DNA from: a virus
Virus record (IMG/VR): IMGVR_UViG_3300033182_000538
Location: 64,001 to 128,000 of that record
Length of the DNA: 64,000 bases
Reading direction: 5' to 3' (one strand)
Positions 32,317-57,832 of the stretch are shown here, in pieces (positions within the stretch are counted from its first letter, which is position 1; each line of letters starts with the position of its first letter). Both the position numbers and the translations under genes were made by a program. Below the pieces are notes generated by a model. That model did not search any database. It was not told where the DNA came from and was given only the letters and a program-made list of their open reading frames with translations.

Positions 32317-33731
32317 ACCTTGTAAATATTAAATCTTTCTCTTGGTTTCCAATTTTCAAAACATCCATCAATAGCATCAATGAATCTTTCACCCATACTT
32401 TCTGATGCCATTCCACTATCACCTGAAATCCACTCGTGACCTTTTTGACCAATTTTTTCTAAGTGTTCTCTACCAGCTCTAAAAGCAAATCCTAACTTTT
32501 CAGCTACATCCATAAAATCACATCTATCATCAAAGATATATGGAGTTACTGGCGAACCTTGAAGTGAACGATTTGATGGCCATACTACATAAGCCCAATC
32601 ACCATATGTGAGTAACTCATTGTTTTCCCACTTTCTCCTATCGTGTAAAGAGCCGTGTTCTACATAATCCTTTTCAGTCAATGGAATACCCATATATTCA
32701 AAACCACATTGGTCTTGAAGACCGCCAGTTACATTTACGATAATTGGTGTACCAGCTCTAAGTGCCTCACACGATGCAAGACCGAACCCTTCGTTTGATG
32801 CGATGTTAAGAATGATATCACCTGAGTTGTAATATAGATTCAAATCCTCGGTTGAGAATTTAGTATTAGTAAACTTGTATTCACCATAGTGACCATTGTG
32901 TTTGATTACTTCAGGTATATCAGTACCATTGTTATCACTTGGTACAGTGTGTAAGAACAAACATACTTTCTTATCTTGATGTTGTTTAGCAAACTCGTTA
33001 AATGCAAGTACTACATCACCTGGCACTTTTCTACGAATGTTTCTATTATTCCATAGAACCACAAAATCAAACTCAGTCAATCCAAACTTTTCTTTGAACT
33101 TCACCAACTTTTCATCATCTGATGGAACTGGTTTGAAAAGTTTAGATACTCCGTGTGGAATATACTTGTATGCCCAATCTTCCTTTGCCATACCATACTT
33201 CTCAAGAGTTCTCTTGTTAATACCATATGTTTGTTTTGAGATTGACATCAACAAATCACAACTTGCGTAGAACGGAGCGTTCCACATTGGGTCTGGTAAT
33301 GAATCCCAAATGTTATAATACATAATAGGACATATTTGCCTAACCTCGTTTTCCATATCATACAACCATTTCCAAAAACGTGGGTCGGTAAAGTGTAGGA
33401 TAGCATCTGGCTTTTCAAGGTTTATCAACTCCCTAAGAACACCAGGATTTCCGTAACCTGTATGTGCGTATATCTTTACATCGGCATCTTCAACACCAGT
33501 TTCCTTTCTCACATCTTCTGAAATATCAAATTTCTTTCCGTGGTCTGGATGTTTTAGTGCCGCACCTAACTGAACCCAATCGTATTTGTGAACAGTTGAT
33601 AGTACAATCTCTTTTGATTGTGTAGCGATACCACTATGTACTCTAAGGTCATCCGAAAGAAGTAGAATCTTTTTCTTCTTCGGTTTATTTGGGTCTACCT
33701 TTTTTAGTTTAGGTAGTTTTAATTCTTGCAT
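32313..33731 (-). CDS. Glycosyltransferase family 4 (GT-B)
   Basis: SDDLRVHSG, NRNIRRK, NEGFGLASCEA. Confidence 0.9.
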   Translation of the reverse strand: MQELKLPKLKKVDPNKPKKKKILLLSDDLRVHSGIATQSKEIVLSTVHKYDWVQLGAALKHPDHGKKFDISEDVRKETGVEDADVKIYAHTGYGNPGVLRELINLEKPDAILHFTDPRFWKWLYDMENEVRQICPIMYYNIWDSLPDPMWNAPFYASCDLLMSISKQTYGINKRTLEKYGMAKEDWAYKYIPHGVSKLFKPVPSDDEKLVKFKEKFGLTEFDFVVLWNNRNIRRKVPGDVVLAFNEFAKQHQDKKVCLFLHTVPSDNNGTDIPEVIKHNGHYGEYKFTNTKFSTEDLNLYYNSGDIILNIASNEGFGLASCEALRAGTPIIVNVTGGLQDQCGFEYMGIPLTEKDYVEHGSLHDRRKWENNELLTYGDWAYVVWPSNRSLQGSPVTPYIFDDRCDFMDVAEKLGFAFRAGREHLEKIGQKGHEWISGDSGMASESMGERFIDAIDGCFENWKPRERFNIYKV

Positions 33732-36022: not shown

Positions 36023-36430
36023 TTACTTAGCCCACTTCTTTCTTTGGACTATCTGAGATATGATTCCGTATACACTTAAATCTTCGTAAGTGTCTTGGAT
36101 ATTTTCACCAACCTCATCTGGTTCACCTAATACAACTAATTGTTTTAGTCTCTGAATTTTGTCGTTCTTTCTAAACCATAGTCCCACTAATGATAGTTTA
36201 ATATCATCATCAGATTCTAAGTTAGTTCCGACTGAGATGTTACCAGGTCCGTAGTTTCTTTGTTTTTTACAAAAGGTTTCGTACATCTCATCTAAAATCT
36301 TTTTAAACTCTTTTGTAGTCTCAGGGTACAATCTTTCACAATACTCTATTGCGTTTTCTTCTTGCTTATCCTTTTCAACCCTCTCAGAATAATTCACCTT
36401 GTTTTTTCTTTCTTTTATTACTTCAACCAT
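36023..36430 (-). CDS. DUF1599 / nucleotide modification associated domain 1 (MazG-like helical)
   Basis: KKQRNYG, DKIQRL, ENIQDTYEDLSVYGII. Confidence 0.8.
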   Translation of the reverse strand: MVEVIKERKNKVNYSERVEKDKQEENAIEYCERLYPETTKEFKKILDEMYETFCKKQRNYGPGNISVGTNLESDDDIKLSLVGLWFRKNDKIQRLKQLVVLGEPDEVGENIQDTYEDLSVYGIISQIVQRKKWAK

Positions 36431-36858
36431 TTTTTGATTTCTTTTTTATCAACACCAAATTTTTGAATGATTTCCATCACCTCATCTTTGGATAATATTT
36501 CAAGGTAATCCTTGACTTCTCTCTGAGATACTTCAAAATATTTTGATAGGTAACTCAGTACTTTCTCATTGTATTTATCACTACCCTTTGCTTTGATGTA
36601 TTTATCAAAACTTCGTTTCTTAGGTAGAACATCTAAATACAATTTGTAAACATCCCTTGGATTGAGCTGACCAATGGTGTACTTTTGTAACTCATTGACC
36701 AACTCTAATAGTCCCATATTCATAGATAAAAATCTATTGACCATAAATGGTTCAAAGGTTTTTCTATCCATAACCGAAAGAGACTCCCAAGAGGTTTTCT
36801 TCTCCTTTATGCCAGAAAGATGCTGAAATAGTGTTTTAGCTTTCTTCGTTTCCGACAT
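36418..36858 (-). CDS. Clamp loader small subunit (T4 gp62-like)
   Basis: FEPFMVNRFLSM, LPKKRSFDKYIK, YFEVSQRE; adjacent to the large subunit. Confidence 0.75.
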   Translation of the reverse strand: MSETKKAKTLFQHLSGIKEKKTSWESLSVMDRKTFEPFMVNRFLSMNMGLLELVNELQKYTIGQLNPRDVYKLYLDVLPKKRSFDKYIKAKGSDKYNEKVLSYLSKYFEVSQREVKDYLEILSKDEVMEIIQKFGVDKKEIKKWLK

Positions 36859-37114
36859 CTTCGATTAATTCTTTTGGAGTAAATTTAGGGTGTACAGTTC
36901 CACAATTGTTACAAATCACAACTGGAATAGGTAACATAGATGGTTGTCCGTTCGGCGATTGTACAGCCGATACCTCTTTGTACATTGTTAACTCATCGAA
37001 GAAAATACCATCACATTGTGGACAAGTTACATTTTTTAACTTACGAACATCCAAGTTCATAGTTGGGGACTTTGCGTGTTGTCCCATTTCTACAATTTTA
37101 CCTTTTTTAGCCAT
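36836..37114 (-). CDS. Zinc-ribbon protein
   Basis: CPQC and CNNC; between the clamp loader subunits. Confidence 0.7.
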   Translation of the reverse strand: MAKKGKIVEMGQHAKSPTMNLDVRKLKNVTCPQCDGIFFDELTMYKEVSAVQSPNGQPSMLPIPVVICNNCGTVHPKFTPKELIEDVGNEES

Positions 37115-38037
37115 TACTTATTAATTCCCATTAAAATGTTTAACATCATCGCCATTACGTTGATTTCTTTATCAACTACCATAGAATCTTTGTACTGACC
37201 ATCTGCGATGTTTAAGATAGTCTGACCCACTTTACCACTTGCGTAATTATCTACCTCATCATAAAGAGCCCTATATAAAGGAGTAAAGTCCTTTACCTTA
37301 GAGTCAGCGATGATTTGTCTGATTTCAGTAAATTGTTGTTTTATATCACCAGTTTCTTTGAGAATGTTTATAACATTTTCAGTATAGTTCGCTTGAACAG
37401 TGGATGTAGCATCAATCTTTAATGTACCATTTACCACTTGTCGCTGTGCAGCATTTAATACTCTACGAATATCAGGATAACCACTATTGACAAGAACGGC
37501 AAGGTCTTCTTTATTGAACTCAACACCCTCTTCATTTAAGATATCAAACAATCGCTTTGCCACTTCTTTTTTAGATGGTGGTGTAATAGCGAATGTCTGA
37601 CATCTACTTTGGATTGGGTCAATCACTTTTTCGACATAGTTACAAGTCAAAATGAAACGAGTAGATTTACTGAAAGTTTCCATTAGATTACGAAGTGCAG
37701 CTTGAGCGTTTGGTGTCAAGTAGTCTGCCTCATCCAAGATTACAACTTTCCACTTACGGAATCCCATAGATGATGCGAATCCACGAATCTTATCACGAAC
37801 TGCATCTACGGAGTTTTCATCCGAAGCGTTGATGTACATAACATCACAATCAATCTGATTGGTAATGATTTTAGCGAGGGTAGTCTTACCTGTACCTGCT
37901 ACTCCGTAGAGTAACAAGTGAGGTACATCCTCATTCTCAATGTAAATCTTTACTTTCTCAAGGATATGTTCGTTTCCAACATAACCTTCTAAACTATTCG
38001 GGCGGTAGCGTTCCACCCAGAGACTATTATTACTCAT
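37114..38037 (-). CDS. Clamp loader ATPase (T4 gp44/RFC small subunit)
   Basis: LWVERYRP, GVAGTGKTT, INASDE, LDEAD, QSRC. Confidence 0.95.
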   Translation of the reverse strand: MSNNSLWVERYRPNSLEGYVGNEHILEKVKIYIENEDVPHLLLYGVAGTGKTTLAKIITNQIDCDVMYINASDENSVDAVRDKIRGFASSMGFRKWKVVILDEADYLTPNAQAALRNLMETFSKSTRFILTCNYVEKVIDPIQSRCQTFAITPPSKKEVAKRLFDILNEEGVEFNKEDLAVLVNSGYPDIRRVLNAAQRQVVNGTLKIDATSTVQANYTENVINILKETGDIKQQFTEIRQIIADSKVKDFTPLYRALYDEVDNYASGKVGQTILNIADGQYKDSMVVDKEINVMAMMLNILMGINK

Positions 38038-39224
38038 CGACCTACTTCTTTTAAGTATTTCTTTTTACAATCTTCCCAAGACATTCCAATGATATCTAAG
38101 TAAAACAATGGTTCTGGCTTAATACGACCTTCATCATAGAGTTTTGTATATCTACGAATAGCTTTAGGTTTCCACCAATTCATTGTGTATTCATCACCAT
38201 CAACAAACTTTTTCTTCATATTTAACTGATTATCATCAATTTCATTACGAAGAAACTCATTCCCATTATCATACATCTGAGCGAAGTATACACCTCTTTT
38301 GAATCCGTGTTGATACTGAGATTGTTTGATTCCCAACTCTTTGAAAATCATAGTTAGAATACGTTGTTTTACACCTGATACAGGCCCTTCGATACCTTCT
38401 TTCTGAGTAGTATTCTTTGTATACTCTTCAGATTTATGTTCTTTCAACCATTGGTGCCACACATCGTAATATGTGTCATCTGGTTTAATTGATACCTTTC
38501 CTGCTGACTCACCCAATGTCTTAAAGTGTGGGATACCATTATATTGAGAGTGGATACCATACAAAGATGTGGTGCCTACTGCGATAAGGGTCTGACCATA
38601 TTTTTCTTTCCAATAATCTCTAACTATTGGGCTGGTCGTTAAACAGGCGACTAACTTACCACCTAAGAAATTGTATCCTAAAGGTTGTGTACATACAATG
38701 GTGGTAGCGATAGTAGTGTGATTTAATTTACCATCTTTGAATTTGTTGTCTTTTGACCAACCAATGTAGGTATCTCGAACTCCCAATGAGGTAACATCAG
38801 AACCCAACGAAACTAATCCTAATAACTTACCACTAACTCGGTCTTTGATGTATAACTTTACGTTACGACCTGGATTAGCTACGAAAGACATCGTGTGAAT
38901 CAGTTTACGGATTTCAGTCCAACGAGTGGATTCCTTTGAATCCTTAACAATCTCAACATATGGTTCAAGGGTCTCAATCTCTTGGATTGTTTGTTCTTTG
39001 TTCATAATGTCAGTTGGAGCCCACAATTGGTCAATATATTGAGCCATTGCGGCTTTCCTCTTCATAGAGTTGGATAAGTCTGAATTCCACTCATCCCACT
39101 TCTTGTAAAGAGTTTGTTCCTCTACAGTCATAGATTGAAGATAGTCCATATTCTCAATGAACTTCTTCTTCTCGTTATCGTAGTTGAACTCTGGCTTCGC
39201 TGGTTCTGTGTCCCAAAATTGCAT
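38034..39224 (-). CDS. DUF4338 (DruA-like) protein, probable GNAT/Mom-related fold
   Basis: NPGRNVKLYIKDRVSGKLLG, PLGYNFLGGKLVA, TTSLYG..SQYN. Confidence 0.7.
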   Translation of the reverse strand: MQFWDTEPAKPEFNYDNEKKKFIENMDYLQSMTVEEQTLYKKWDEWNSDLSNSMKRKAAMAQYIDQLWAPTDIMNKEQTIQEIETLEPYVEIVKDSKESTRWTEIRKLIHTMSFVANPGRNVKLYIKDRVSGKLLGLVSLGSDVTSLGVRDTYIGWSKDNKFKDGKLNHTTIATTIVCTQPLGYNFLGGKLVACLTTSPIVRDYWKEKYGQTLIAVGTTSLYGIHSQYNGIPHFKTLGESAGKVSIKPDDTYYDVWHQWLKEHKSEEYTKNTTQKEGIEGPVSGVKQRILTMIFKELGIKQSQYQHGFKRGVYFAQMYDNGNEFLRNEIDDNQLNMKKKFVDGDEYTMNWWKPKAIRRYTKLYDEGRIKPEPLFYLDIIGMSWEDCKKKYLKEVGR

Positions 39225-39225
39225 A

Positions 39226-39921
39226 TTACTTAATTTCTACTAAATAATAATTTGATTTAAATCCATCGTGCTCAAACGAAACGTGAGCAAGTCCTTGAGG
39301 AGAAATCTTCAATGAAGATGATTTAGCACCTCTATTAGCATTTAGAATTTCTTTCAAATACTTAGCTGAGAAAGAAATAGGTTCAACATCACCCTCACAA
39401 GTACAATCAACATTGATAGAGATTCTATTTGAGTTGATTTTAGAATAACCCAAGATTACCTCACCTTTGTTTTCTTTACAAGTGAATGTAAATGTATCTG
39501 AATCAGACATAGCACCCTTTGCTTTTGTAAACGTAGATACAAAGTCATCATCCATTGTGATTGTAGATGTAAAAGGAGGAAGTTGTTTCAACTCAGGTAC
39601 AACTGGAATCACCGATAAATCAGCCAACATATAGTTTACTGATGTTTTAGTGTCCGAGAAAACCAAAGCTGCGTCACCTTCGTTTACATCAACTTGACTA
39701 CCCAATACACCGAGTAGACCTTTTAGTTGAGATGTGGTGTAAACACCATACTCACCATTTGGAAATTCCTTCTCCTCAGATGATACACTACCCAAAAGAG
39801 TTTTGTCATCCGAAATAAAAGATACTTCCATTCCTTCATCGGTTGAGTTGATTTTTACACTCTCAACCTCACCACCCAAGTTATATCGGGCGATAAATCC
39901 TTCAAACGAACTTTTTTTCAT
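39226..39921 (-). CDS. Sliding clamp (T4 gp45/PCNA-like)
   Basis: 231 aa, acidic, beta-rich, ISFSAKYLKEIL, ends YYLVEIK; lies between PolB and clamp loader. Confidence 0.7.
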   Translation of the reverse strand: MKKSSFEGFIARYNLGGEVESVKINSTDEGMEVSFISDDKTLLGSVSSEEKEFPNGEYGVYTTSQLKGLLGVLGSQVDVNEGDAALVFSDTKTSVNYMLADLSVIPVVPELKQLPPFTSTITMDDDFVSTFTKAKGAMSDSDTFTFTCKENKGEVILGYSKINSNRISINVDCTCEGDVEPISFSAKYLKEILNANRGAKSSSLKISPQGLAHVSFEHDGFKSNYYLVEIK

Positions 39922-39943
39922 ACTTTTTATTGTTTAATGTTAG

Positions 39944-39977
39944 ACTAATATACGAAATTTATTTTTAATATCCAAAT
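39944..39977 (-). promoter_or_regulatory. Bacteroidota-type -33/-7 promoter
   Basis: Sense TTTGgatattaaaaataaatttcgTATATTAG. Confidence 0.75.
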
Positions 39978-42496
39978 TAAAATGAGAAAAATTGTGATGC
40001 AGCTGCAAGGTTCGGATTTGGTTTCTCCCAATCCATAGCTTTGTAGAAGTCATCAAGTTTATTATTCAACTCTTTTTCCCAAATCAAATCATAATCAATG
40101 TATTGTTGGATAAACTCATTTATTTGTGGTGGGTCTGAGTGACCCGTAAACGCTGTGGTCTGAAGACCAAGCGGGTTCTTCTTCAAATATACCCATTTAA
40201 TCTTGTCACCATCTTTCATTGGTTCATACTTGTAAGGTGCGTTAAACTTCTTCAACAATTGGTTGTAAGTAATAGCCGCCTTAACGTGAGCAGGCGTTCC
40301 CTTCTTGAATTCACCCAATGCTTGATTCTTAAATAGATACTTTGACATATCCTTTACCGCTGAGTTCTTTGCGATGTCTACAAAGTTTTGACTGGTCATT
40401 CCATCTTTATAATCCAAAATCTTTTGGTCAATCTCATCTTTGTTAGTAGACTTTAGAATGTCCATCAAAACCGTTGACATCACTTCCTTGAAGTATGTTG
40501 GGAATGAACTTCGTTTTACATCAAGTCCCTTCACATCCAACTTATCACAAGGTACAGTATTGTCATTAATAATCCATTGTGCGTATCTCTTCTTTGATAC
40601 CCAAAAACCACCCTTTGCGATAGTCTCTTGTTTGATATCAAATCGGTGAGTATCCACATTGAACATCTTATATGCCATTACATCATATACTTTGTTGATA
40701 TGTGTTTCTACTTCTTTTGCAACTGATAGAATCGCTGGAATCATTTCTTCATCCGAATCTTCGTTGATGTTTGGATTACGAGACTTTACCAATGGTGCAG
40801 CTTGATAGAATACTGAATCAGTATCAGTATATACATTGTAATCTGCTTCCTTACCAATGTTCTTTGTATAGTATTGGTTAGCAATCATCTCAGTAGTCTT
40901 AATCACCGACTGACCTGTAATGGTAGTTGCTTCCGCATTATCCACATCGTAGAATCTGAATGATGGTAGACCCAATACACCATAAAGGGAGTTCAACATA
41001 ATCTTTTGAACCAATTGTCTCTGAGAGTAGAACTTGTAGAGTTCATCATTACCTTCTTTACCATACTTCTTCATAAGGTCTTTGTACTCCACACGTTTGT
41101 CAAACCAAACATTAAGAATCTCAGGAATCACACCAACTTTGTCTCTACGATAAAGTACACCATTTGCTGCGATTGAGTAATCATTCTTCTGAACAAACTC
41201 TAAGAATCGGTCTTTAGGTAGTGGTGGGAACTCATTACCATCATCATCTACAATTGAGTATGATTCAATCTTACCCTTCATATGGTCTTCAGATGAATAG
41301 TTCTTCAATTTACCAATCTTGGTCTCTGGCGAGATATTGATTGTCATAATGATAGATGGATATAGTGATGTCAAATCCAAATCGTATACCCACTTGTAAA
41401 GACCAGGTTTTGGTTCTTTTACATAAGCACCCGTAAACTTACCTTCACCATCAGACCCATCAGCATTACGATTCATTCTCTTTGGTTTATTAGGAGCTAC
41501 CCTACCACTCCTTCTCAAGAATGTCAAGATAGCACCCTCTAACCACTTTGATGAGAATAAAAAGTCTTCATAGAAAACGTGACCAGCGTGACAAATCGCC
41601 TGAGCCAATTGAATGAACTGAAGTTTCTTGTCCATATCAACAACCAACTCCACATCCACCAAGTTATACTCAATGAACTTTTCCAAGTCATCTCTGAATA
41701 GTTGGTCAAGGTTTCCTTCATACTCAATCTTACCACGACCCAATGTCATATTAGCAATAGTGTCTAATCGGTAGTTTGGGAATTCTTGGTAGGTAAAGTT
41801 CTTGAACAACGCAAGATAATCCAAACACGAAATACCAGCGATGATATATCTATTACGATACTTGTTCCAACTAACCTTTCCAATAGGAGACAATTCGTTT
41901 GCTTTTCGTTCACCAAAAAGAACCTTAATACGATTGTATAGGTAGGTAACATCAAAGTAGTCAATGTTCCAACCAGTCACAATAGTAGGATTGATTTCTT
42001 TCCATTTGTTGATGAAAGCAATCACCATTTCCTCTTCAGTATCAAACGACTCTACTTGAGCTCCCTTGATAGTTTTGTTGATTTTCTCACCTTTGTTTAC
42101 TACATAGACAAAGTAATCGCCAGTTACGGAATCGTGACCAGCGACTGATGTCATTGCGTTCTGAGCTTCATTAATATCAGGTAAACCACTATTCATCTCT
42201 ACCTCAATATCAAATGTCAAAATAGTATGACCTTTAGAGATTTCATCTGAATCACCATACTCATCAATCAGAAAACGAGTTACTTCATTTACATCACTTT
42301 CGTATAGCTCCAAGTCATCTTCTTGTTTCCAAAAGTTTATCTTTTTAAGACGCTCTCCGTGAATAGAAGTATGAGCACCATTACCATCTCTAACGTAACC
42401 ATATCTACGGTACTTAGATGTGAAGTAACCTTTTTCATCATCCCAACAATGGATGATAGATTTTTCTTTTTCATAGTATACGTTTTGATATGCCAT
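39977..42496 (-). CDS. DNA polymerase family B (T4 gp43-like)
   Basis: Exo FDIEVE, GWNIDYFD, YNLVD; pol DLTSLYPSII, KIMLNSLYG, YTDTDS, KKRY. Confidence 0.98.
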   Translation of the reverse strand: MAYQNVYYEKEKSIIHCWDDEKGYFTSKYRRYGYVRDGNGAHTSIHGERLKKINFWKQEDDLELYESDVNEVTRFLIDEYGDSDEISKGHTILTFDIEVEMNSGLPDINEAQNAMTSVAGHDSVTGDYFVYVVNKGEKINKTIKGAQVESFDTEEEMVIAFINKWKEINPTIVTGWNIDYFDVTYLYNRIKVLFGERKANELSPIGKVSWNKYRNRYIIAGISCLDYLALFKNFTYQEFPNYRLDTIANMTLGRGKIEYEGNLDQLFRDDLEKFIEYNLVDVELVVDMDKKLQFIQLAQAICHAGHVFYEDFLFSSKWLEGAILTFLRRSGRVAPNKPKRMNRNADGSDGEGKFTGAYVKEPKPGLYKWVYDLDLTSLYPSIIMTINISPETKIGKLKNYSSEDHMKGKIESYSIVDDDGNEFPPLPKDRFLEFVQKNDYSIAANGVLYRRDKVGVIPEILNVWFDKRVEYKDLMKKYGKEGNDELYKFYSQRQLVQKIMLNSLYGVLGLPSFRFYDVDNAEATTITGQSVIKTTEMIANQYYTKNIGKEADYNVYTDTDSVFYQAAPLVKSRNPNINEDSDEEMIPAILSVAKEVETHINKVYDVMAYKMFNVDTHRFDIKQETIAKGGFWVSKKRYAQWIINDNTVPCDKLDVKGLDVKRSSFPTYFKEVMSTVLMDILKSTNKDEIDQKILDYKDGMTSQNFVDIAKNSAVKDMSKYLFKNQALGEFKKGTPAHVKAAITYNQLLKKFNAPYKYEPMKDGDKIKWVYLKKNPLGLQTTAFTGHSDPPQINEFIQQYIDYDLIWEKELNNKLDDFYKAMDWEKPNPNLAAASQFFSF

Positions 42497-43629
42497 TAAC
42501 CTTGTAACCTTTTATGTAATTCTTTAATCATTATATCTTCATTCAAAGATAGTTCCACAGCCCTTACGACTGACATACTGTCTCGTTCTTGTCTGAATGT
42601 GTCATCATCCAACAATTTATCAAGATAATCAAATAAGTCTTTTTTATACTTGAAGAACATTCCGTTTGGGTCAATCTCGTGATAACAATCAGATTCATTC
42701 CAAATCATAGGACACCCGTTCATCATACAATCCGTACCACTTACTGACCACCCATAGTTAGTTTGTCTCATTTGGATACCTACCAAACAATCTTGCAATC
42801 TCTTGTAGTAATCGTGTTTAGGTACTTTTGTATTATCAATCCAAGAATATGGTGGGTCACCTTTTAGTTGTGGAATCCACACCTTGAAATCTTCTCGTTG
42901 TTTACGATACTCTTTCATCAGTTCAATAAACTTTGGATATCCCTTGTATGCAGCTGCACGATGGTTAAATACGATTACTCTATCTTTAGAGTCTTTGATA
43001 CCATCAACAATCTTGTCTTTAGGTAATCCTAAGTTCCATACTTTTAGAATTCCATCCAACTTCTGAACAAACTCTTCGTTGAATAGTTCTCTTGCTTCAT
43101 TCAATACTCTATTCTTTTGGTCTTGAGTATTAAGATAACATACATCCATTTGAGATACACCAAGTAGTTCAATAGGTAACCACAACCACTTAGGTTTACC
43201 AGCTCTATTGTCCGGCCCATTACACGATTTCATTTCCCACCAATGACAATAACCCACAATCTTAGTGTCCATTGTTTTTTTGTATCTACCCACTTGAACC
43301 CAATCTGGTAGGTGTGAATAGATTACATCGTAATCAATGTCTTTGAGTAGATTGATAAGTTTAGATGATGGGAATGACCTCTGATTCATCATATCACCAG
43401 GAATGTCAATTTGGTGTTGTTTGACATTTGGTAGATTCAACTTCTTACTGATTTTGCCAGTGGGCATTAGGATATTCCAATAGTAATCGCCATAAGAGTC
43501 CAATGCTTTGATGTGGTTATGAATCACATCAACAAATGAATCTTTATCAATGTTGGAAGAATTCGTTATGTTTGGTATAACGAGTACCTTCCTTGCTTTA
43601 CTATAATCTATTGCTTCCCAAAACTGCAT
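42496..43629 (-). CDS. GT-B glycosyltransferase, candidate DNA-base glycosyltransferase
   Basis: VIYSHLPD, VFNHRAAAYKGY, GWSVSGTDCMMNGCP; translationally coupled to PolB (TAATG). Confidence 0.7.
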   Translation of the reverse strand: MQFWEAIDYSKARKVLVIPNITNSSNIDKDSFVDVIHNHIKALDSYGDYYWNILMPTGKISKKLNLPNVKQHQIDIPGDMMNQRSFPSSKLINLLKDIDYDVIYSHLPDWVQVGRYKKTMDTKIVGYCHWWEMKSCNGPDNRAGKPKWLWLPIELLGVSQMDVCYLNTQDQKNRVLNEARELFNEEFVQKLDGILKVWNLGLPKDKIVDGIKDSKDRVIVFNHRAAAYKGYPKFIELMKEYRKQREDFKVWIPQLKGDPPYSWIDNTKVPKHDYYKRLQDCLVGIQMRQTNYGWSVSGTDCMMNGCPMIWNESDCYHEIDPNGMFFKYKKDLFDYLDKLLDDDTFRQERDSMSVVRAVELSLNEDIMIKELHKRLQG

Positions 43630-45404
43630 TATACAAATAAGTTTTTATGAGCAGTATTAACCTTAGATTCTACATTGTAATAATCGGTGATTAATTCATC
43701 TTTTTTATATAATCTAACTCTACCCAAACTTCTATCAATACCAATCCCATACTTTGGTTTCTCATAGTGATTCTTACTATTCACAAAGTTGAATTTAGTA
43801 TAAGGGCCTATTTTTCGTTGATTATATTCGTATGTAGAAAACGATGCGTATTTAGTAGCTGAGTGATTATTAGGTACTCGCTGTCCATTTTGAATGTTTG
43901 GTTTAATGTATTTTTTCCAAGCATCACTAATTGTTTTTATTATTAAATCATCAGATTCAACGCCCACTAACGCATCTTCAACATTAAATGATGTAATTGA
44001 ATTTTCATATAATTCAATTGCGGATGAGAATGATGGTTCATCATAAACATCATCATCGTAAGCAGAGTATAAAGAAATACCCAATTCTTTAGCTATATCT
44101 AAATAATAATCAGTATTTAATTGAAAGTCTTTTGGATTTTCTAATATATCAATTCCCAATTGAGCTGTTGGTTTATCAAATGAAACAAACATATTTTGAA
44201 ATAAATCCTCATAAGTTTTATTAAACTCACCCATATCATCAACATACCTACATAATCTACCTAATAAACCTTGTAGTAAAGATGTAACTACCTTTGATGA
44301 TTCAACAATACCCTTTATGAATGGTTTGTTTTGATGATATAGATTAGTCAATTCTCCATATGTTTGAACAGGGAATAACTCTTTATCAACTAACTTATCC
44401 AAGTTAACACCACATCCCAAAGAACCATCAATAAACAATGCAACATCTTTTCCATTTAATTTTGAATATTCAAATGTTCTTTTGATTATTTCGGTTAAAG
44501 TTCTTTCAGATTTATCAACTGTATCCAATCCTATCAACTCCAAACCTTCGTTATATGCTTCAGAGTTAAGTTCAACTTTGTTTGAAGTTTCACCCATACA
44601 TATAACAGATGGTATACCCCAATCTGATAACATACGCAATGCAGCTTCCATTATTTCTCTTGGCTTTAATCTAATAATATAGACACCAAATCTATCTACT
44701 TCAGTAGTATTACTATGTTGAGCCAATCTTTGCATTATATACGATACATTATTTTTATCATACTGAATAAAGTAGGTCACTCCATCATCAACATTTTTTA
44801 ACAAATGAGGAACGCCTCTATAATGTTCATTTGGTTCTATTTTATGATAAATGATATCACTACCACGAGATGCATCTAACATAGAAATATTAGTTGCACC
44901 AACTGCTCCAAATGTACAACCAATATCTCTTAGCTCCTTAGCCAAATTTACATATCTACTTTTAGCTTGGGGTGTAGTTCCAAACTGGTCCTCATCAAAG
45001 AATACCAAATCTTGAGGCGTTAAATTTTTTATGAATTCATCTTGCTTATGTGGTTTGAAGAAGTGTAGTAATCGCTGAAATCTATAATCAACGGAACTCA
45101 TTTGGGTTACTGCTCTATTCAAACCATCAACGTGAGCAGTAGATGTATATGATGTAGTTATATATGATTTTGATTTTGGGTCTCTATCTAACCACAAAGA
45201 AGCAACACCAATCATAATTTGAGTTTTACCACTCTGCATTGGTGCAGATATTGTAAAGTAAGGAAGTTCAGACTTATACGCAGGGTCAGTTATCTTTTTG
45301 AAGATAGATTGAGCTTCATCAATCTCATCGGGTTTTGGTGGATTAATTGGATTGGTTTTCCAAGTTTCAAATAAGCTTTTTGAATTTTCTTTTTTTAATC
45401 TCAT
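43629..45404 (-). CDS. SF2 helicase/ATPase-like protein
   Basis: Walker A APMQSGKT, Walker B FFDEDQ, motif III GAT, GCGVNL, QGLLGRLCRY. Confidence 0.7.
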   Translation of the reverse strand: MRLKKENSKSLFETWKTNPINPPKPDEIDEAQSIFKKITDPAYKSELPYFTISAPMQSGKTQIMIGVASLWLDRDPKSKSYITTSYTSTAHVDGLNRAVTQMSSVDYRFQRLLHFFKPHKQDEFIKNLTPQDLVFFDEDQFGTTPQAKSRYVNLAKELRDIGCTFGAVGATNISMLDASRGSDIIYHKIEPNEHYRGVPHLLKNVDDGVTYFIQYDKNNVSYIMQRLAQHSNTTEVDRFGVYIIRLKPREIMEAALRMLSDWGIPSVICMGETSNKVELNSEAYNEGLELIGLDTVDKSERTLTEIIKRTFEYSKLNGKDVALFIDGSLGCGVNLDKLVDKELFPVQTYGELTNLYHQNKPFIKGIVESSKVVTSLLQGLLGRLCRYVDDMGEFNKTYEDLFQNMFVSFDKPTAQLGIDILENPKDFQLNTDYYLDIAKELGISLYSAYDDDVYDEPSFSSAIELYENSITSFNVEDALVGVESDDLIIKTISDAWKKYIKPNIQNGQRVPNNHSATKYASFSTYEYNQRKIGPYTKFNFVNSKNHYEKPKYGIGIDRSLGRVRLYKKDELITDYYNVESKVNTAHKNLFV

Positions 45405-45429
45405 TGATATGTTTTAGATTTTAATGTTT

Positions 45430-45465
45430 TACAAACATACGAATAATTTTTTAATTATCCAAATA
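45430..45465 (-). promoter_or_regulatory. Bacteroidota-type -33/-7 promoter
   Basis: Sense TTTGgataattaaaaaattattcgTATGTTTG, a full TAnnTTTG match. Confidence 0.8.
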
Positions 45466-45468
45466 TTT

Positions 45469-46260
45469 TTACCAAAAACTTACTTGATTTTCTGGCTCGT
45501 AAGTTTCGTGTCTTTCAATCGGTGGTAAGAACTCTTCTGCGTTCTTAGGATACGGACTCGTTTTGTGTTTGAGTCGTTTAGTTAGTTGCCGCTTTTCAGA
45601 TTTGTTCTGACCTAATACTTGAATGTATCGGTGTTTAGGAGCTTCTCTCTTTCTCCAAAACTCTTTGTACCCATCTTTACCAATCTCGGTTTTGAGATGT
45701 TCTACGTTGTGACTACCCCACTTTGAAAATACAGTTCTTGAGTGAATCCACTTATGTGGGTTTTCTAAGGATACTGAATAGTTAGGCATTAGTTGAATAT
45801 CACGACAATCTTGATATAACCAATTCGTTGCTTGATAGATACCACCTAAATGTAATTGTTCAGGGTCAGCGTAACTCAACAACATTTTTATGTTTGGTGC
45901 GTTTTCACGAATCCATTTAAATGATTGACCCATAGCGTATGATTCAATATTTGACCCATAACCATCGTGGATGAACAATCGTGTCAATTCCAAACATTGG
46001 TCTTTTTCTAATCCATCAATTACTGAAGTGATTGCTGACCTTCCTACTGGATATCCATAAACTAAACATCCGATTAATTTTTCATCATTTCCAAGAATGT
46101 CTATTTCATCTGATTTATAGAAGATACCAAGAGCATATCTACACATAGTCCAAGCGTGGGAGTAGTGATGGGTTACAATCATCTCCTTAGCAATAGGTTT
46201 ATTTATTTCACGAATCGTTACTCGTGATGTGTCAACATATGTCTTATTTGCTTCTTTCAA
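45469..46260 (-). CDS. Mom-like DNA modification protein (GNAT fold), copy 2
   Basis: HHYSH, LIGCLVYGYP, LELTRLF, NIES, LSYADP, GGIYQATNW, KHRY. Confidence 0.85.
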   Translation of the reverse strand: MKEANKTYVDTSRVTIREINKPIAKEMIVTHHYSHAWTMCRYALGIFYKSDEIDILGNDEKLIGCLVYGYPVGRSAITSVIDGLEKDQCLELTRLFIHDGYGSNIESYAMGQSFKWIRENAPNIKMLLSYADPEQLHLGGIYQATNWLYQDCRDIQLMPNYSVSLENPHKWIHSRTVFSKWGSHNVEHLKTEIGKDGYKEFWRKREAPKHRYIQVLGQNKSEKRQLTKRLKHKTSPYPKNAEEFLPPIERHETYEPENQVSFW

Positions 46261-46999
46261 TCGGTTCTAATTTATAAATCTCTTCCTCAAATAATTCACT
46301 TTTCTTCGGATAGGGTAAAGATGGGTACTTGAGTGTTTTCAATATACGACTTTTTTTTGACTTATCCAAAATATAAACGTATCTATGTTTCCGTGGTTCT
46401 TTTTTAATCCAAAATGGTTTATTTATCATCTCTTGGATTTTTTTTGGGTTGTTTGTCCCAAATTTTACGAATGAAGTCCGACTATGATGCCACTCATCAT
46501 CTTCAGACCACTTGAAAGACCAAGAATCGTTAGGTCTTACTTTGTTTCCTTGATATATCCAATTTGTTGACTGATATACAGTCCCCAAGTGACCAACCTT
46601 TGGGTCTGAGTAGGATATCAATGCTCTAATGTGTTTTGCGTGTTCTCGTAACCACTTGAATGTTTGTCCAACGAACCAGCTTTCTATATTACACCCATAC
46701 CCATCAAATACGAATAATCGTGTAAGTTCTAATACTTCGGTTCGTTCAAGAAGTGGTGATATGGACTGACCAGAGTGTCTACCTATGGGGTCACCATATG
46801 TAGCTACTCCAATCAACTTGTCCGTGGATTCAAAGAATTGGTGAGAGTCATCTTGTATATACAATCCAAGTGCGTAAGATACCTTTGTCCAAATCCCACT
46901 ATAATGGTTGTTTACCACTATATCTTTTGCGACTGATTTGGAAATAGGTCTTACTGATAACTTAGAAATGTCAGTATATACCTTCCCTTCAATTTTCAT
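46244..46999 (-). CDS. Mom-like DNA modification protein (GNAT fold), copy 1
   Basis: NHYSG, LIGVATYGDP, LELTRLF, NIES, ISYSDP..GHLGTVYQSTNW, KHRY. Confidence 0.85.
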   Translation of the reverse strand: MKIEGKVYTDISKLSVRPISKSVAKDIVVNNHYSGIWTKVSYALGLYIQDDSHQFFESTDKLIGVATYGDPIGRHSGQSISPLLERTEVLELTRLFVFDGYGCNIESWFVGQTFKWLREHAKHIRALISYSDPKVGHLGTVYQSTNWIYQGNKVRPNDSWSFKWSEDDEWHHSRTSFVKFGTNNPKKIQEMINKPFWIKKEPRKHRYVYILDKSKKSRILKTLKYPSLPYPKKSELFEEEIYKLEPIERSK

Positions 47000-47214
47000 T
47001 GATAATCGTTAAATTCACCAAATAATATATGAGTCCAAGTTTCACCTTTCACAATCTTACGAATGTTGGCGGGTGATACACCATTGTTTCGGGCCAATAC
47101 TCTAATGTTTCGGTGTCCCACAGCCCATAGTTTACGAATAGACCTTACTTGTTTTTCCGTTAATTTATGTTGTGGATGTGATTCGCCTCTTAATGCCATT
47201 TTGTATCTTTTCAT
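46996..47214 (-). CDS. Stand-alone HTH DNA-binding protein (HNH homing endonuclease C-terminal type)
   Basis: GESHPQHKLTEKQVRSIR...LARNNGVSPANIRKIVKGETW. Confidence 0.75.
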   Translation of the reverse strand: MKRYKMALRGESHPQHKLTEKQVRSIRKLWAVGHRNIRVLARNNGVSPANIRKIVKGETWTHILFGEFNDYQ

Positions 47215-47621
47215 TCAAAGGGTATTTCTAATTGACCACCATCAGTCAAAAATTGTCCAATATTAGGTTTAGAAAAGTTAGGCCCCTTTAATACCTTACC
47301 ATCTTCACGATAGATAGGTTTACCATCTTCTCCTAATTTAGACATATTAGAACGATGTACCTCATCAAACACTTGTTCAATGATATTGCTCATTCCGTGA
47401 GCAACCATAGTACCCAAAAGGATATATAATTGGTCAGCAAGTGCATCGGTAACCTCAACAAGGTCATCGTTATTACAAGCATCTAAATACTCAACCAATT
47501 CCTCTTTACCCAACCGATATCTCAAGTAATAATCATCTGGCTCAAGTAATGTTGGTTTTGAGTTTCTTGTTTGGTTATAAGCTTTCTGAAAATCCCAAAG
47601 TTGTTGTAACTGCTTTTCCAT
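47211..47621 (-). CDS. MazG-like nucleoside triphosphate pyrophosphohydrolase
   Basis: KEELVEY...EVTDALADQLY, EVHRSNMSK, DGKVLKG. Confidence 0.9.
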   Translation of the reverse strand: MEKQLQQLWDFQKAYNQTRNSKPTLLEPDDYYLRYRLGKEELVEYLDACNNDDLVEVTDALADQLYILLGTMVAHGMSNIIEQVFDEVHRSNMSKLGEDGKPIYREDGKVLKGPNFSKPNIGQFLTDGGQLEIPFE

Positions 47622-52450: not shown

Positions 52451-53446
52451 TTAAAATATATCATCCCAATCTTCACCTTCGTTTGCTTTAGAGTAATCCG
52501 TTGGTCTTACTGCAAAGAAGTCGGTGTGGGTAGTTCCGCCAGTTAAGTGATAAAACCACTCCAACTCATTTGCTGAGTTTTCATCGTAGTCAAACAACTT
52601 ACCTTCGTAACCTAATTCATTGTATTTTTCATTTACTCTTCTTCTGATAAAGTTGATTAGGTCATTTTTCTTTAGATTTTCTAAATCACCCATTTCAAAC
52701 ATTTTATCAATGTATTTCAACTCCAAGTCTAACATAATGTTAGCAGCTTCTTCTACAGCCTCTTTTGCTTGGTCTTTAAGTTCAGGATACTCCTCACACA
52801 TATGTCTGAATAGTTGACATCCCATTTTAGAATGTAGAGACTCATCACGAACTGACCATTTCATTTGTTGACCAATTCCCTTTAACATATTTCTCATTTG
52901 GAATGAGTATAATACAGCGAATGATGAATACAATGCAACACCTTCAGTAAATGCTGAGAATATAGCAAGAGACCTTGCTACTTCTTTTCTCGCCTCAGCA
53001 TTATCTTTCAAATCTTCCCAAGTATATCTATTTGTAATATTAGCTAAGTTTTCGAATCTATCAGCCGTAGCTGGTTCGTGTAAGAATGCCTCAAAGTCTT
53101 CCAACCCAAGAGATTCATTCAAATAAGAGTAAGCAGTAGCGTGAATAGTTTCTTGTGAACCAAACATCATAGCCATTTGTTTGATTTCGTGTTTAGGAAA
53201 CCATTCGGTCACCCAACCAGTCCAATAGTCCGACACCGCACATTCCGTTTGAGCAAATCCTAACAAGATATTACCTACCAAATTCTTTTCAGCGGGTGAC
53301 AAATTTTCATTCCAATCTTTAATGTCACCTTGCATTGGTATTTCAGTATGTAACCAAAAAGCTTGTGCTTGTTTCAGCCAACCTTCGGTATAGTATTCAG
53401 GATATTCAAACGGTTTAAACGGTATTCGGTTTTCAAATAATGCCAT
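52451..53446 (-). CDS. nrdB: Ribonucleotide reductase class Ia beta subunit
   Basis: AFWLHTE, QETIHATAY, EGVALYSSF, RDESLH, DFF. Confidence 0.96.
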   Translation of the reverse strand: MALFENRIPFKPFEYPEYYTEGWLKQAQAFWLHTEIPMQGDIKDWNENLSPAEKNLVGNILLGFAQTECAVSDYWTGWVTEWFPKHEIKQMAMMFGSQETIHATAYSYLNESLGLEDFEAFLHEPATADRFENLANITNRYTWEDLKDNAEARKEVARSLAIFSAFTEGVALYSSFAVLYSFQMRNMLKGIGQQMKWSVRDESLHSKMGCQLFRHMCEEYPELKDQAKEAVEEAANIMLDLELKYIDKMFEMGDLENLKKNDLINFIRRRVNEKYNELGYEGKLFDYDENSANELEWFYHLTGGTTHTDFFAVRPTDYSKANEGEDWDDIF

Positions 53447-57070: not shown

Positions 57071-57832
57071 TTATTCGTTGAATAAATCATCAAAAGCATC
57101 CTTCACATTAGCAGCTGGTGAAGTAGCTTGAGTTGTTTGAGTTGTTTCAGCTTTTGGTTCTTCTTTGGTATCTGATACCTCGCCAGTTTCCAACCACTGC
57201 TTCAACATATTTTCCATTTCTTCGTAAGATACCTTCTTGAACATACTTGGAAGTTCAATCTGGTCTTTAGCCAAATTCAAGATGTTTGAATCTTCTGAAA
57301 TAGCTGATGTGTTTGGTTTTACTCTGATGTAAGTCTCAGGATAAGTTTTACCCAACTCAGCTGCAGTTTTGAATTCTACGGTAATATCACGACCATTTAC
57401 AGGATCAGTCAAATCACCATAATCAGGGTCAGCGAAGAAACCAAGAAGTTCTTGATATACATTCTTACCGAATCCCCAAAACTTAACACCTTCAGATTCT
57501 TCACCACGAACCAATACTGGAACGTAAGTTCTCATCTTAGGAGTCAGTTTTCTTGAAAGTTGGTAATCTTCACGAGAACCAGTCGCTTTCAATTTTTCTG
57601 CGAACTCTAATAGTGGGTCAGCTTCACCAAAAGAAGATGGTGAAATAATGTTCTTACCACCAAATCCAAAGTGGAAGTATAATTCAATAAATGGATTTGA
57701 AGGGTTGTGTACATAAGGCAAAATGCGAATTTGTTGTTTGCCTGGTTGAGGTTTCCAAAGATTATCAGTCTTTGTTACTTTTGTTTGAAGTGTATTCAAA
57801 CGATTGCGGATTGCGTCTAAATCAATAGCCAT
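57071..57832 (-). CDS. Single-stranded DNA-binding protein (T4 gp32-like)
   Basis: LWKP...IRILP, GVKFWGFGK, DYGDLTDPVNGRD, acidic tail AFDDLFNE. Confidence 0.85.
   Translation of the reverse strand: MAIDLDAIRNRLNTLQTKVTKTDNLWKPQPGKQQIRILPYVHNPSNPFIELYFHFGFGGKNIISPSSFGEADPLLEFAEKLKATGSREDYQLSRKLTPKMRTYVPVLVRGEESEGVKFWGFGKNVYQELLGFFADPDYGDLTDPVNGRDITVEFKTAAELGKTYPETYIRVKPNTSAISEDSNILNLAKDQIELPSMFKKVSYEEMENMLKQWLETGEVSDTKEEPKAETTQTTQATSPAANVKDAFDDLFNE

What the first reader, a model, noticed from the sequence alone, without database searches (positions are those of the whole stretch)
39213..47235. Shared terminal Q-(x)-F-[FW] peptide suggests the modifying enzymes dock on the sliding clamp
Seen: PolB ends ...AASQFFSF; the DUF4338 protein begins MQFWD; the unrelated GT-B begins MQFWE; Mom copy 2 ends NQVSFW; Mom copy 1 has an internal SHQFFES in a segment that differs from its paralog; the NTP-PPase ends QLEIPFE. 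Known: T4/RB69 gp43, gp33 and gp55 bind the clamp through a terminal aromatic peptide, and PIP boxes (Qxxhxxaa) and beta-clamp motifs (QL[SD]LF) are Gln plus aromatic. Two unrelated neighbours both starting MQFW is unlikely by chance. Inference: a clamp toolbelt couples base modification to fork passage, so nascent DNA is protected immediately.
Basis: partly seen in the sequence, partly recalled or inferred. Interest (0 to 1): 0.85.

Follow-up and report, generated by a model that had tools for sequence, protein, structure and literature searches.

The report
Clamp-docking tags on phage DNA-modifying enzymes
In this uncultured marine phage and more than 150 related contigs, several unrelated DNA-modifying enzymes carry an invariant two-residue aromatic tag (Phe-Trp or Phe-Phe) at one end, like the DNA polymerase tail, so they probably hook onto the phage's own sliding clamp and modify DNA as it is copied; binding has not been measured.

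Summary
The shared start MQFW is beyond chance: it is the most surprising repeated N-terminal tripeptide among 206 proteins (P about 5e-5).

Across about 170 related loci, terminal aromatic pairs are invariant or nearly so in only a few families:
- PolB, C-terminal [QK]FF[SG]F
- Mom2, C-terminal [FY]W
- a third Mom-like family, C-terminal QWF[GV]
- GT-B, N-terminal M-x-FW-[DE]
- DruA-like, N-terminal M-x-FW-D
- a subclade of the clamp-loader subunit, N-terminal MSFF

Flanking residues vary, and an endonuclease elsewhere in the genome keeps FF near its C-terminus.

- The Gln is not conserved, so this is neither a PIP box nor a beta-clamp motif.
- The pyrophosphatase tail is a different, single-aromatic motif.

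Support for clamp docking:
- The 231-aa protein folds as PCNA.
- The GT-B tag lies outside the folded core.
- A clamp-trimer plus DruA-like(1-30) prediction gave only weak support (0.55 against controls of 0.00).

Clamp docking is the best reading (about 0.6), but no binding has been shown. This scan has noted the same kind of tag on other phage DNA, including a 266-kb phage that is probably a relative sampled here.

The parts
39226..39921 (-). Sliding clamp, 231 aa, PCNA/gp45-type two-domain monomer; the proposed receptor
   Evidence: phrog_223 'DNA polymerase processivity factor', 3e-10. AlphaFold model pLDDT 93.3, pTM 0.90. Foldseek top hits are PCNA, E about 1e-13, TM 0.71-0.78. It lies between PolB and the clamp-loader genes.
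39977..42496 (-). Family B DNA polymerase, 839 aa
   Evidence: Pfam DNA_pol_B 6.6e-43 and exonuclease domains. 47.6% identical to the PolB of Microcystis phage Mel-JY01.
39980..39997 (-). PolB C-terminal tail SQFFSF, the presumed clamp-binding peptide
   Evidence: [QK]FF[SG]F in 76/76 complete orthologues. Mel-JY01 ends SKFFNFK. It sits at the position of the T4 gp43 tail EKASLDFLFG.
38034..39224 (-). DruA/DUF4338-like protein, 396 aa; a putative DNA-modifying enzyme of unknown chemistry
   Evidence: Pfam DruA 1.5e-22, residues 53-326; phrog_19197.
39210..39224 (-). N-terminal tag MQFWD of the DruA-like protein
   Evidence: F3 and W4 are invariant and D5 nearly so in 47 distinct orthologues at 60-89% identity. 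Position 2 is variable or absent. 85/86 in de novo clustering. Distant homologues carry FF[DE] instead.
39177..39188 (-). Second aromatic-acidic element FNYD (consensus F-[DN]-[FY]-[DE]) after a variable linker
   Evidence: F13 is invariant. The linker at residues 6-12 varies and carries indels.
42496..43629 (-). GT-B (GT4-like) glycosyltransferase, 377 aa
   Evidence: Weak Pfam Glyco_transf_4 hit, below the cut-off. Model pLDDT 85. Foldseek hits MshA, BshA and GT4 enzymes, E 1e-11 to 1e-12, TM about 0.65.
43615..43629 (-). N-terminal tag MQFWE of the GT-B
   Evidence: An aromatic pair in all 83 orthologue rows at 64-89% identity: M-x(0-2)-FW-[DEG], with one FF variant (L056). A 28%-identical GT-B in the same slot lacks the tag. 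Residues 1-4 have pLDDT below 50 and the first strand starts at residue 13.
45469..46260 (-). Mom-family protein, copy 2, 263 aa
   Evidence: Pfam Mom 1.5e-48, residues 14-239.
45472..45543 (-). Variable C-terminal tail of Mom2 ending in an invariant FW
   Evidence: [FY]W as the last two residues in 73/73 orthologues. The preceding roughly 20 residues vary and carry indels. The paralogue Mom1 lacks the tail.
46244..46999 (-). Mom-family protein, copy 1, 251 aa
   Evidence: Pfam Mom 2.5e-46.
46832..46843 (-). Internal loop HQFF of Mom1; a possible internal clamp-binding loop, uncertain
   Evidence: H-x-FF is conserved in all Mom1-type orthologues aligned. The loop is absent from the third Mom-like subfamily. 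Precedent: the internal LDFLF loop of T4 ligase binds gp45.
47214..47234 (-). NTP-PPase C-terminal QLEIPFE; not part of the FW/FF tag family
   Evidence: It has a single aromatic residue. Variants include EIPFDEEV, QIEFDEKV and NQMELPFE, and it is absent in some (WELDSQNK).
37114..38037 (-). Clamp-loader large subunit (gp44/RFC-like), 307 aa
   Evidence: AAA, DNA_pol3_delta2 and Gp44_lid hits. Here it starts MSNNSLWVERYRP with no tag. In a divergent subclade it gains an N-terminal extension MSFFAND.., MSFFE.. or MF[EI].. (16/84).
36418..36858 (-). Clamp-loader small subunit (gp62-like), 146 aa
   Evidence: phrog_225 'clamp loader of DNA polymerase', 2.2e-19.

Best explanation
The terminal Phe-Trp or Phe-Phe dipeptides are short linear docking motifs for the phage's own PCNA-like trimeric sliding clamp. 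Each sits on a variable, probably disordered linker.

Proposed mechanism:
- PolB holds the clamp through its C-terminal [QK]FF[SG]F tail.
- The other pockets of the ring, or clamps left behind on new duplex, take the N-terminal M-x-FW-[DE] tags of the GT-B glycosyltransferase and the DruA-like protein, and the C-terminal [FY]W tag of Mom2.
- In relatives they also take the tags of further Mom-like proteins, a DNA methyltransferase, a GNAT protein and an endonuclease.
- The enzymes are thereby concentrated on freshly replicated phage DNA and modify it at once.

Shown: the motifs, their conservation, their restriction to polymerase, clamp loader and DNA-acting enzymes, the clamp fold, and the disorder of the GT-B tag.

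Inferred: that the clamp is the receptor, that the tags compete for the PolB pocket, and that modification is coupled to replication.
For: 1. Unbiased scans of about 30 G000-seeded families over 100 loci, and of 43 de novo families over 173 loci, find conserved terminal aromatic pairs only in these:
- PolB, 76/76 (91/98 in the de novo scan)
- Mom2, 73/73
- a third Mom-like family, 12/13
- DruA-like, 85/86
- GT-B, 83/83 orthologues
- a subclade of the clamp-loader large subunit, 16/84
About 33 other families score 0 or 1.

2. Flanks vary while FW does not. Position 2 uses 12 or more codons, the linkers carry indels, and both Phe codons occur.

3. A protein known to act on clamps, the loader, carries the same kind of N-terminal peptide (MSFF..) in relatives.

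4. An endonuclease elsewhere in the genome (G000:13664-14095, phrog_945) keeps FF within 6 residues of its C-terminus in 79/80 relatives, on a variable linker.

5. Accessory enzymes in relatives also end or begin with FF, FW or WF:
- an N6/N4 DNA methylase, KSKKFFAL
- Mom-like proteins, QWFG and KTFFDI
- a P-loop plus GNAT protein, NFWDVE
- a short DruA-like protein, MSFFDY

6. In a distant relative the PolB tail (ASKFFDF..) and the DruA-like N-terminus (..GSFFDID) resemble each other. Other DruA homologues at 35-51% identity start with x(2-8)-FF[DE].

7. The receptor is a PCNA-fold clamp. GT-B residues 1-4 have pLDDT below 50, ahead of the first strand at residue 13.

8. Predicted complex, clamp x3 plus DruA-like residues 1-30: verdict 'weak support'.
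- Score 0.55 (runs 0.58, 0.55, 0.53); best of 3 controls 0.00.
- The mark was reached by 58 of 80 solved complexes and 2 of 110 mismatched pairs. At 0.60 or under it was reached by only 7 of those 80 and by both mismatches that passed.
- The runs agree in at least 72% of contacts; partner pLDDT is at least 53.
- My own alignments and three copies were used, unlike the calibration.

9. Precedent. T4 gp43 (EKASLDFLFG), gp55 and gp33 tails and an internal T4 ligase loop bind gp45 through such peptides, with Kd about 10 uM for the ligase peptide.
Against: - No binding measurement exists.
- The complex prediction is only a weak pass. PCNA-peptide complexes are abundant among solved structures, so it may reflect likeness rather than binding.
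- The enzyme tags (FW-[DE] at an N-terminus) are not identical to the PolB tail (FF-x-F at a C-terminus), and their orientation relative to the chain end is reversed.
- Several modification enzymes in the same slots lack any tag: a 28%-identical GT-B in L008, a TAGT glycosyltransferase in L022, and Mom1 at its termini.
- The Phe codon of the N-terminal tags is TTT in 94 of 100 cases against 67% genome-wide. This may only reflect AT-rich starts.
- The one experimental precedent for a phage DNA glycosyltransferase on a clamp (T4 alpha-GT with gp45) was not reproduced in recent pull-downs.
Confidence: 0.6

Rival explanations
1. The tags dock on a different common hub, or on each other. Candidates are PolB itself, the gp32-like SSB, the helicase or the clamp loader. 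The result would be a modification complex that does not use the clamp pocket.
For: The comparative data show a shared ligand but do not name it. Terminal aromatic peptides serve other pairs in this same genome. The RNR small subunit ends [ED]W.D[IL][FW], the classical R1-binding tail, and the SSB ends AFDDLFNE.
Against: The polymerase tail is the clamp-binding element in T4 and RB69, and the tags resemble it. The clamp loader gains the same peptide in relatives. The only partner tested in silico, the clamp, gave 0.55 against 0.00 for the controls, though that is a weak pass.
Confidence: 0.17
2. The aromatic pair has a role within each enzyme, not a recruitment role. It could be a wedge that stacks into DNA during base flipping, a contact for self-association, or a stabilising cap on the fold.
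For: DNA-modifying enzymes often use aromatic wedges. The Mom1 HxFF is in an internal loop of the fold. GT-B residues 6-9 (IDY) after the tag are also conserved.
Against: The same dipeptide sits at the extreme N- or C-terminus of at least five unrelated folds, on variable linkers with indels. It is also on PolB and the clamp loader. GT-B residues 1-4 are not placed with confidence against the core.
Confidence: 0.13
3. There is no protein-level function. The pattern would be shared ancestry among close relatives, or a signal at the nucleic-acid level (ATG-NNN-TTT-TGG-GA) around the start codons.
For: The relatives sampled are mostly 60-90% identical. TTT is over-used at the tag Phe, 94/100 against 67% genome-wide.
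Against: - Neighbouring positions have diverged freely while FW has not.
- TTC does occur, and W is replaced by F, and F by Y, in some relatives.
- The motif also occurs at C-termini, followed by a stop.
- It has been gained independently on different proteins.
- The DNA similarity at the two starts does not extend beyond the codons.
Confidence: 0.05

Closest known systems
gp45-interaction peptides of T4/RB69 clamp clients: gp43 tail EKASLDFLFG, gp55 ..SLDFLYEAND, gp33, and the internal LDFLF loop of T4 DNA ligase
   Same: A short hydrophobic or aromatic peptide on a flexible terminus or loop. It is present on the phage's own family B polymerase tail and copied onto other proteins that must act on clamp-loaded DNA. 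The clamp is trimeric with the PCNA fold, in a T4-like replication module.
   Different: - The sequence differs: an F-[FW] core with no LDFL.
- Two clients carry it at the extreme N-terminus, right after Met.
- The clients here are DNA-modifying enzymes, not replication or transcription factors.
- The clamp has no Pfam hit, matches phrog_223 only at 3e-10, and matches PCNA by fold.
T4 alpha-glucosyltransferase with gp45 (proposed in 2004, not reproduced in 2025-26)
   Same: The same idea: a phage DNA glycosyltransferase working from the sliding clamp so that new DNA is modified at the fork.
   Different: T4 alpha-GT has no recognisable gp45-type peptide at either end. Recent in vitro and in vivo pull-downs, done with C-terminally His-tagged enzymes, found no interaction. 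Here the argument rests on a conserved terminal motif shared with PolB, across several enzyme families.
Eukaryotic and archaeal PIP box (Q-x-x-[ILM]-x-x-[FY]-[FY]), including N-terminal examples such as DNA ligase I and the DNMT1-PCNA link (from general knowledge)
   Same: An aromatic pair that anchors into a PCNA-fold clamp. It can sit at an N-terminus. It links a DNA-modifying enzyme (DNMT1) to replication.
   Different: The defining Gln and the spaced hydrophobic residue are not conserved here. The tag is essentially two residues plus an acidic one.
Bacterial beta-clamp-binding motif QL[SD]LF / QLxLxL
   Same: A short terminal peptide shared by many clamp clients.
   Different: The clamp here is a PCNA-type two-domain protomer, not a three-domain beta protomer. 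Neither Gln nor Leu is conserved.
ParB-like partners or fusions that direct phage DNA-modification enzymes (PMC13229309)
   Same: An accessory module that brings or activates a DNA-modifying enzyme on DNA. Some DruA-like homologues carry an N-terminal ParB_N, UDG or DUF3102 domain where this protein has the FW tag.
   Different: That is a folded domain or a separate protein, not a two-residue peptide, and no clamp is involved.

Membership tests
T4/RB69-type gp45-interaction peptide clients | A short hydrophobic or aromatic peptide on a flexible terminus or loop of the client | tested here: met
   The tags are at the extreme termini with variable linkers. GT-B residues 1-4 have pLDDT below 50.
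T4/RB69-type gp45-interaction peptide clients | Sequence (S/T)LDFL(F/Y) or the RB69 SLFDMFDF type | tested here: not met
   Here the tags are F-[FW]-[DE] (N-terminal), [FY]W (C-terminal) and [QK]FF[SG]F (PolB). T4 tails were read.
T4/RB69-type gp45-interaction peptide clients | The same peptide is present on the phage's own polymerase tail | tested here: inconclusive
   The PolB tail [QK]FF[SG]F shares the aromatic pair but is not identical to FW-[DE]. The resemblance is closer in the endonuclease (NFFDFSK), in the methylase (KFFAL), and in the distant relative L104 (PolB SKFFDF against DruA-like SFFDID).
T4/RB69-type gp45-interaction peptide clients | Physical binding of the peptide to the clamp pocket | not testable with these tools
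   Only a prediction is available: weak support, score 0.55, best control 0.00, with the calibration counts given.
PIP box (Qxx[ILM]xx[FY][FY]) | Conserved Gln at position 1 | tested here: not met
   Position 2 of the enzymes is Q, S, N, T, K, E, A, D, I or absent. PolB has Q or K.
PIP box (Qxx[ILM]xx[FY][FY]) | Adjacent aromatic pair | tested here: met
   FW, FF or YW is invariant or nearly so.
Bacterial beta-clamp-binding motif | QL[SD]LF-type peptide together with a beta-type (DnaN) clamp | tested here: not met
   The clamp model matches PCNA, not DnaN. Q and L are not conserved.
Sliding clamp (PCNA/gp45 class), for 39226-39921 | Two-domain PCNA fold | tested here: met
   pLDDT 93.3. Foldseek hits PCNA at E about 1e-13, TM 0.71-0.78. 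The sequence profile against PDB was only E 0.11 to PCNA.
Sliding clamp (PCNA/gp45 class), for 39226-39921 | Encoded with a clamp loader and the replicative polymerase | tested here: met
   The order PolB, clamp, (DruA-like), gp44-like, p92, gp62-like is seen, with the same synteny in relatives.
Mom family (PF25680), for Mom1 and Mom2 | Pfam match above the gathering score | tested here: met
   165.6 and 158.4 bits against a cut-off of 27.1.
DruA/DUF4338 (PF14236) | Pfam match above the gathering score | tested here: met
   80.5 bits against a cut-off of 27. No Druantia partner genes are nearby, so it is a family member, not part of a Druantia system.
GT-B glycosyltransferase | Two Rossmann-like halves resembling GT4 enzymes | tested here: met
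   Foldseek hits MshA, BshA and GT4 enzymes at E 1e-11 to 1e-12, TM about 0.65. The Pfam hits were below the cut-off.

The most novel reading that the evidence does not exclude
The phage-encoded clamp acts as a self-marker for DNA hypermodification. At least five unrelated enzyme families (GT-B, DruA-like, several Mom-like, a DNA methylase, a GNAT protein), plus an endonuclease, have each acquired a minimal two-residue F-[FW] anchor at whichever terminus is free. This includes a previously undescribed N-terminal 'Met-x-Phe-Trp-acidic' class of clamp-interaction motif. As a result only DNA carrying the phage clamp is modified, and it is modified immediately behind the fork.
Probability: 0.4. 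Interest if true: 0.75.

Novelty: new variant of a known kind. Interest (0 to 1): 0.62.

Why it matters
It is unclear how phages with heavily modified DNA ensure that every new duplex is protected before host nucleases see it, and that host DNA is not modified. The only experimental proposal, T4 alpha-GT on gp45, is now contested.

Here a conserved terminal tag shared with the polymerase gives a direct test using peptides and one small protein. It also warns that tagging the tagged end of such an enzyme could erase the interaction.

If the reading holds:
- The tag predicts which unknown phage proteins, for example DruA-like ones, act on DNA at the fork.
- It adds a minimal N-terminal class to the clamp-interaction motifs.
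- It points to clamp-pocket competition as a way of ordering several modification steps.

I found no paper describing this.

Tried and rejected
- **Clamp identity.** The clamp profile against PDB sequences gave only E 0.11 to PCNA. Folding settled it.
- **DruA-like against Mom.** hhalign of the DruA-like and Mom alignments found no relation (probability 0.6%). This says little, because both alignments have low diversity.
- **gp55.** A search for a T4 gp55 homologue in the genome found nothing, so late-transcription clamp clients could not be used to calibrate the motif.
- **Context of distant DruA homologues.** P0124, P0125 and P0151 lie on short contigs or contigs without replication genes. 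Only P0121 (L104) was informative.
- **DNA methylase with tail KFFAL.** Only four identical copies were found, so conservation could not be tested.
- **Clamp alignment as a query.** It returned only relatives at 66% identity or more, so covariation between clamp type and tag could not be tested at depth.
- **Cultured pelagiphages Mosig and HTVC008M.** They have DUF4338 homologues (32-35% identical) without the tag, and a T4-gp45-type clamp. This fits lineage specificity but is not a test.

Considered and rejected:
- **Duplication of the start region.** Similarity is limited to the tag codons.
- **A T4-type capsid-targeting leader cleaved after Glu.** Asp is as common as Glu, and PolB carries the tag.
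- **An N-degron.** Met is retained before Q, N, K, E or F.

The Q-based PIP reading and the PPase tail were dropped.

Full report
**Setting.** The window is bases 64001-128000 of a 167-kb IMG/VR phage record. About 206 genes lie on one strand and GC is 31-38%. The replication module is T4-like:
- family B polymerase, 39977-42496
- a 231-aa protein, 39226-39921
- gp44/RFC-like loader subunit, 37114-38037
- gp62-like loader subunit, 36418-36858

The nearest isolate is Microcystis phage Mel-JY01 (PolB 47.6% identical). Interleaved with these genes are two Mom-family proteins, a DruA/DUF4338-family protein, a GT-B glycosyltransferase and a MazG-like NTP pyrophosphatase.

**The observation.** Three checks address chance within this genome:
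- QFW at positions 2-4 occurs twice against 0.010 expected. It is the most surprising repeated N-terminal tripeptide among 206 proteins (P about 5e-5, about 0.01 after correction).
- FW occurs 33 times in the proteome and three times at a terminus. All three terminal cases are in this block.
- The two starts share only the codons ATG-CA[AG]-TTT-TGG-GA. Nothing upstream matches, so there is no duplicated start region.

**Conservation.** I fetched 20 loci through the clamp, 80 through the GT-B and 73 more through a clamp alignment.
- *GT-B.* All 83 orthologue rows at 64-89% identity begin M-x(0-2)-FW-[DEG], with one FF variant. Position 2 is Q, S, N, T, E, A, I, D or absent.
- *DruA-like.* Orthologues at 58-89% identity begin M-x(0-5)-FW-[DN]. 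F3, W4 and F13 are invariant in 47 distinct sequences, and the linker at residues 6-12 is variable with indels.
- *Mom2.* It ends in [FY]W in 73/73, after a variable tail of about 20 residues that its paralogue Mom1 lacks.
- *PolB.* It ends [QK]FF[SG]F in 76/76. Mel-JY01 ends SKFFNFK.
- *Gln.* It is not conserved anywhere.
- *Codons.* Position 2 uses more than a dozen codons, both Phe codons occur, and Asp and Glu alternate.
- *More distant DruA-like proteins (35-51% identity).* They often start x(2-8)-FF-[DE]. Others carry an N-terminal ParB_N, UDG or DUF3102 domain instead. The N-terminus of this family is therefore a slot for targeting modules.

**Unbiased scans.** I clustered all ORFs of the loci in two ways: about 30 families seeded from the genome, and 43 de novo families with at least 5 distinct members over 173 loci. 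Conserved terminal aromatic pairs appear only in:
- PolB
- DruA-like
- GT-B
- Mom2
- a third Mom-like family, C-terminal QWF[GV], 12/13
- a subclade of the clamp-loader large subunit, which gains an N-terminal extension MSFFAND.., MSFFE.. or MF[EI]..

About 33 other families score 0 or 1.

Less widespread accessory genes in the same module follow the rule:
- an N6/N4 DNA methylase between PolB and the clamp, ending KSKKFFAL
- a Mom-like protein ending KTFFDI
- a P-loop plus GNAT protein ending NFWDVE
- a short DruA-like protein starting MSFFDY

Outside the module, an endonuclease of the genome (G000:13664-14095, phrog_945) ends ENFFDFSK. It keeps FF within six residues of its end in 79/80 relatives, on a variable linker. 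The tag therefore tracks proteins that work on DNA, not a genomic neighbourhood.

Exceptions exist. A 28%-identical GT-B in the same slot (L008), a TAGT glycosyltransferase (L022), and the termini of Mom1 have no tag.

**The receptor.**
- The 231-aa protein has no Pfam hit and only a weak profile match to PCNA (E 0.11).
- It folds with pLDDT 93.3, and its best structural matches are PCNA (E about 1e-13, TM 0.71-0.78).
- The GT-B model (pLDDT 85; GT4-like by Foldseek) leaves residues 1-4 below pLDDT 50 and starts its first strand at residue 13.
- One complex job was available: the clamp trimer with DruA-like residues 1-30, both as alignments. The verdict was 'weak support'.
  - Score 0.55 (0.58, 0.55, 0.53); best of three controls 0.00.
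  - The mark was reached by 58 of 80 solved complexes and 2 of 110 mismatched pairs. At 0.60 or below it was reached by only 7 of the 80 and by both mismatches that passed.
  - The runs agree in at least 72% of contacts, and partner pLDDT is at least 53.
  - No contacts were reported. The set-up differs from the calibration, and likeness to the many solved PCNA-peptide complexes could explain a pass.

**Comparison with what is known.**
- T4 gp43 ends EKASLDFLFG and gp55 ends ..SLDFLYEAND.
- The LDFLF element also sits in an internal loop of T4 DNA ligase and binds gp45 with Kd about 10 uM (PMC6212786). That makes the conserved internal H-x-FF loop of Mom1 a legitimate but untested candidate.
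- The present tags work like these peptides but fail the sequence definitions of the T4 motif, the PIP box and the beta-clamp motif.
- The closest functional precedent, T4 alpha-glucosyltransferase on gp45, was not reproduced in pull-downs that used C-terminally His-tagged enzymes.
- Cultured pelagiphages have DUF4338 homologues without the tag, and a T4-type clamp. The tag is therefore lineage-specific.
- Literature searches found no description of clamp-docking tags on hypermodification enzymes.

- The motif is F-[FW] (or [FY]W), not Q-(x)-F-[FW].
- The PPase tail (..IPF[DN]EEV, absent in some relatives) has a single aromatic residue, resembles an SSB-type tail and should be left out.
- Terminal aromatic peptides also serve other pairs here: the RNR small-subunit tail and the SSB tail. 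The ligand therefore has to be shown, not assumed.

**Earlier notes of this scan.** Follow-up agents reached the same reading on other phage genomes. One is a 266-kb phage with a terminal [FY]W tag. It is probably the contig sampled here as L059, which comes from a 266,153-base contig. These are unchecked AI notes and are not counted as evidence.

**Verdict.** Clamp docking is the best explanation, at about 0.6. Its rivals are docking on another hub, a role within each enzyme, or no protein-level function. Binding has not been tested.

Noticed in passing
window 31048-32316 (-) and 32313-33731 (-): The upstream 422-aa protein ends ..LKLPKLKKV and the next, 472-aa protein starts MQELKLPKLK. Both ends keep the L-P-K-L-K-K core in the few relatives that reach this far: C-termini PKLKKIDA, PKLKKMNG, PKLKKVGE; N-termini MELPKLRKV, MEGLKLPTL, MEKLNLPKL. 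This is another shared terminal peptide, unrelated to FW.
   Followed up: partly
G000:13664-14095 (-), outside the window (locus L108:13664-14095): A 143-aa endonuclease (phrog_945, 1e-51) ends ENFFDFSK. FF is kept near the C-terminus in 79/80 relatives on a variable linker. It is a likely further client of the same receptor.
   Followed up: yes
window 57071-57832 (-): The gp32-like SSB (phrog_1192) ends with an acidic-aromatic tail, KDAFDDLFNE, conserved as AFDDLFNN in five relatives. This is an SSB-type partner-binding tail rather than the FW tag.
   Followed up: partly
window 52451-53446 (-): The RNR small subunit ends EGEDWDDIF. The tail [ED]-[WF]-x-D-[ILM]-[FW] is conserved in 31 relatives. 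It is the classical large-subunit-binding tail, and a caution that terminal aromatic peptides have other ligands.
   Followed up: partly
window 43629-45404 (-): The 591-aa protein between Mom2 and GT-B (Walker-A-like SAPMQSGKT) has no homologue in any of the roughly 170 related loci. Relatives hold unrelated proteins of 415-440, 486-566 or 595 aa in this slot, so the slot is hypervariable inside a conserved module.
   Followed up: partly
loci L048, L051, L055, L056, L080 (relatives): In these loci PolB is read as two or three ORFs, separated by ORFs of 120-275 aa. The polymerase gene may be interrupted by inserted elements such as introns or homing endonucleases.
   Followed up: no
proteins P0127, P0132, P0156, P0143 (metagenomic DruA-like homologues): These DruA-like domains are fused at the N-terminus to ParB_N (P0127, P0132), a UDG-superfamily domain (P0156) or DUF3102 (P0143). 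This fits a family of DNA-acting enzymes with swappable targeting modules.
   Followed up: partly
window 46996-47214 (-): The 72-aa HTH/HNH-like protein between the PPase and Mom1 has an aromatic C-terminal end that varies between clades: FGEFNDYQ, NEFWSGS[LI], NWPYE[SN]. Its meaning is unknown.
   Followed up: no
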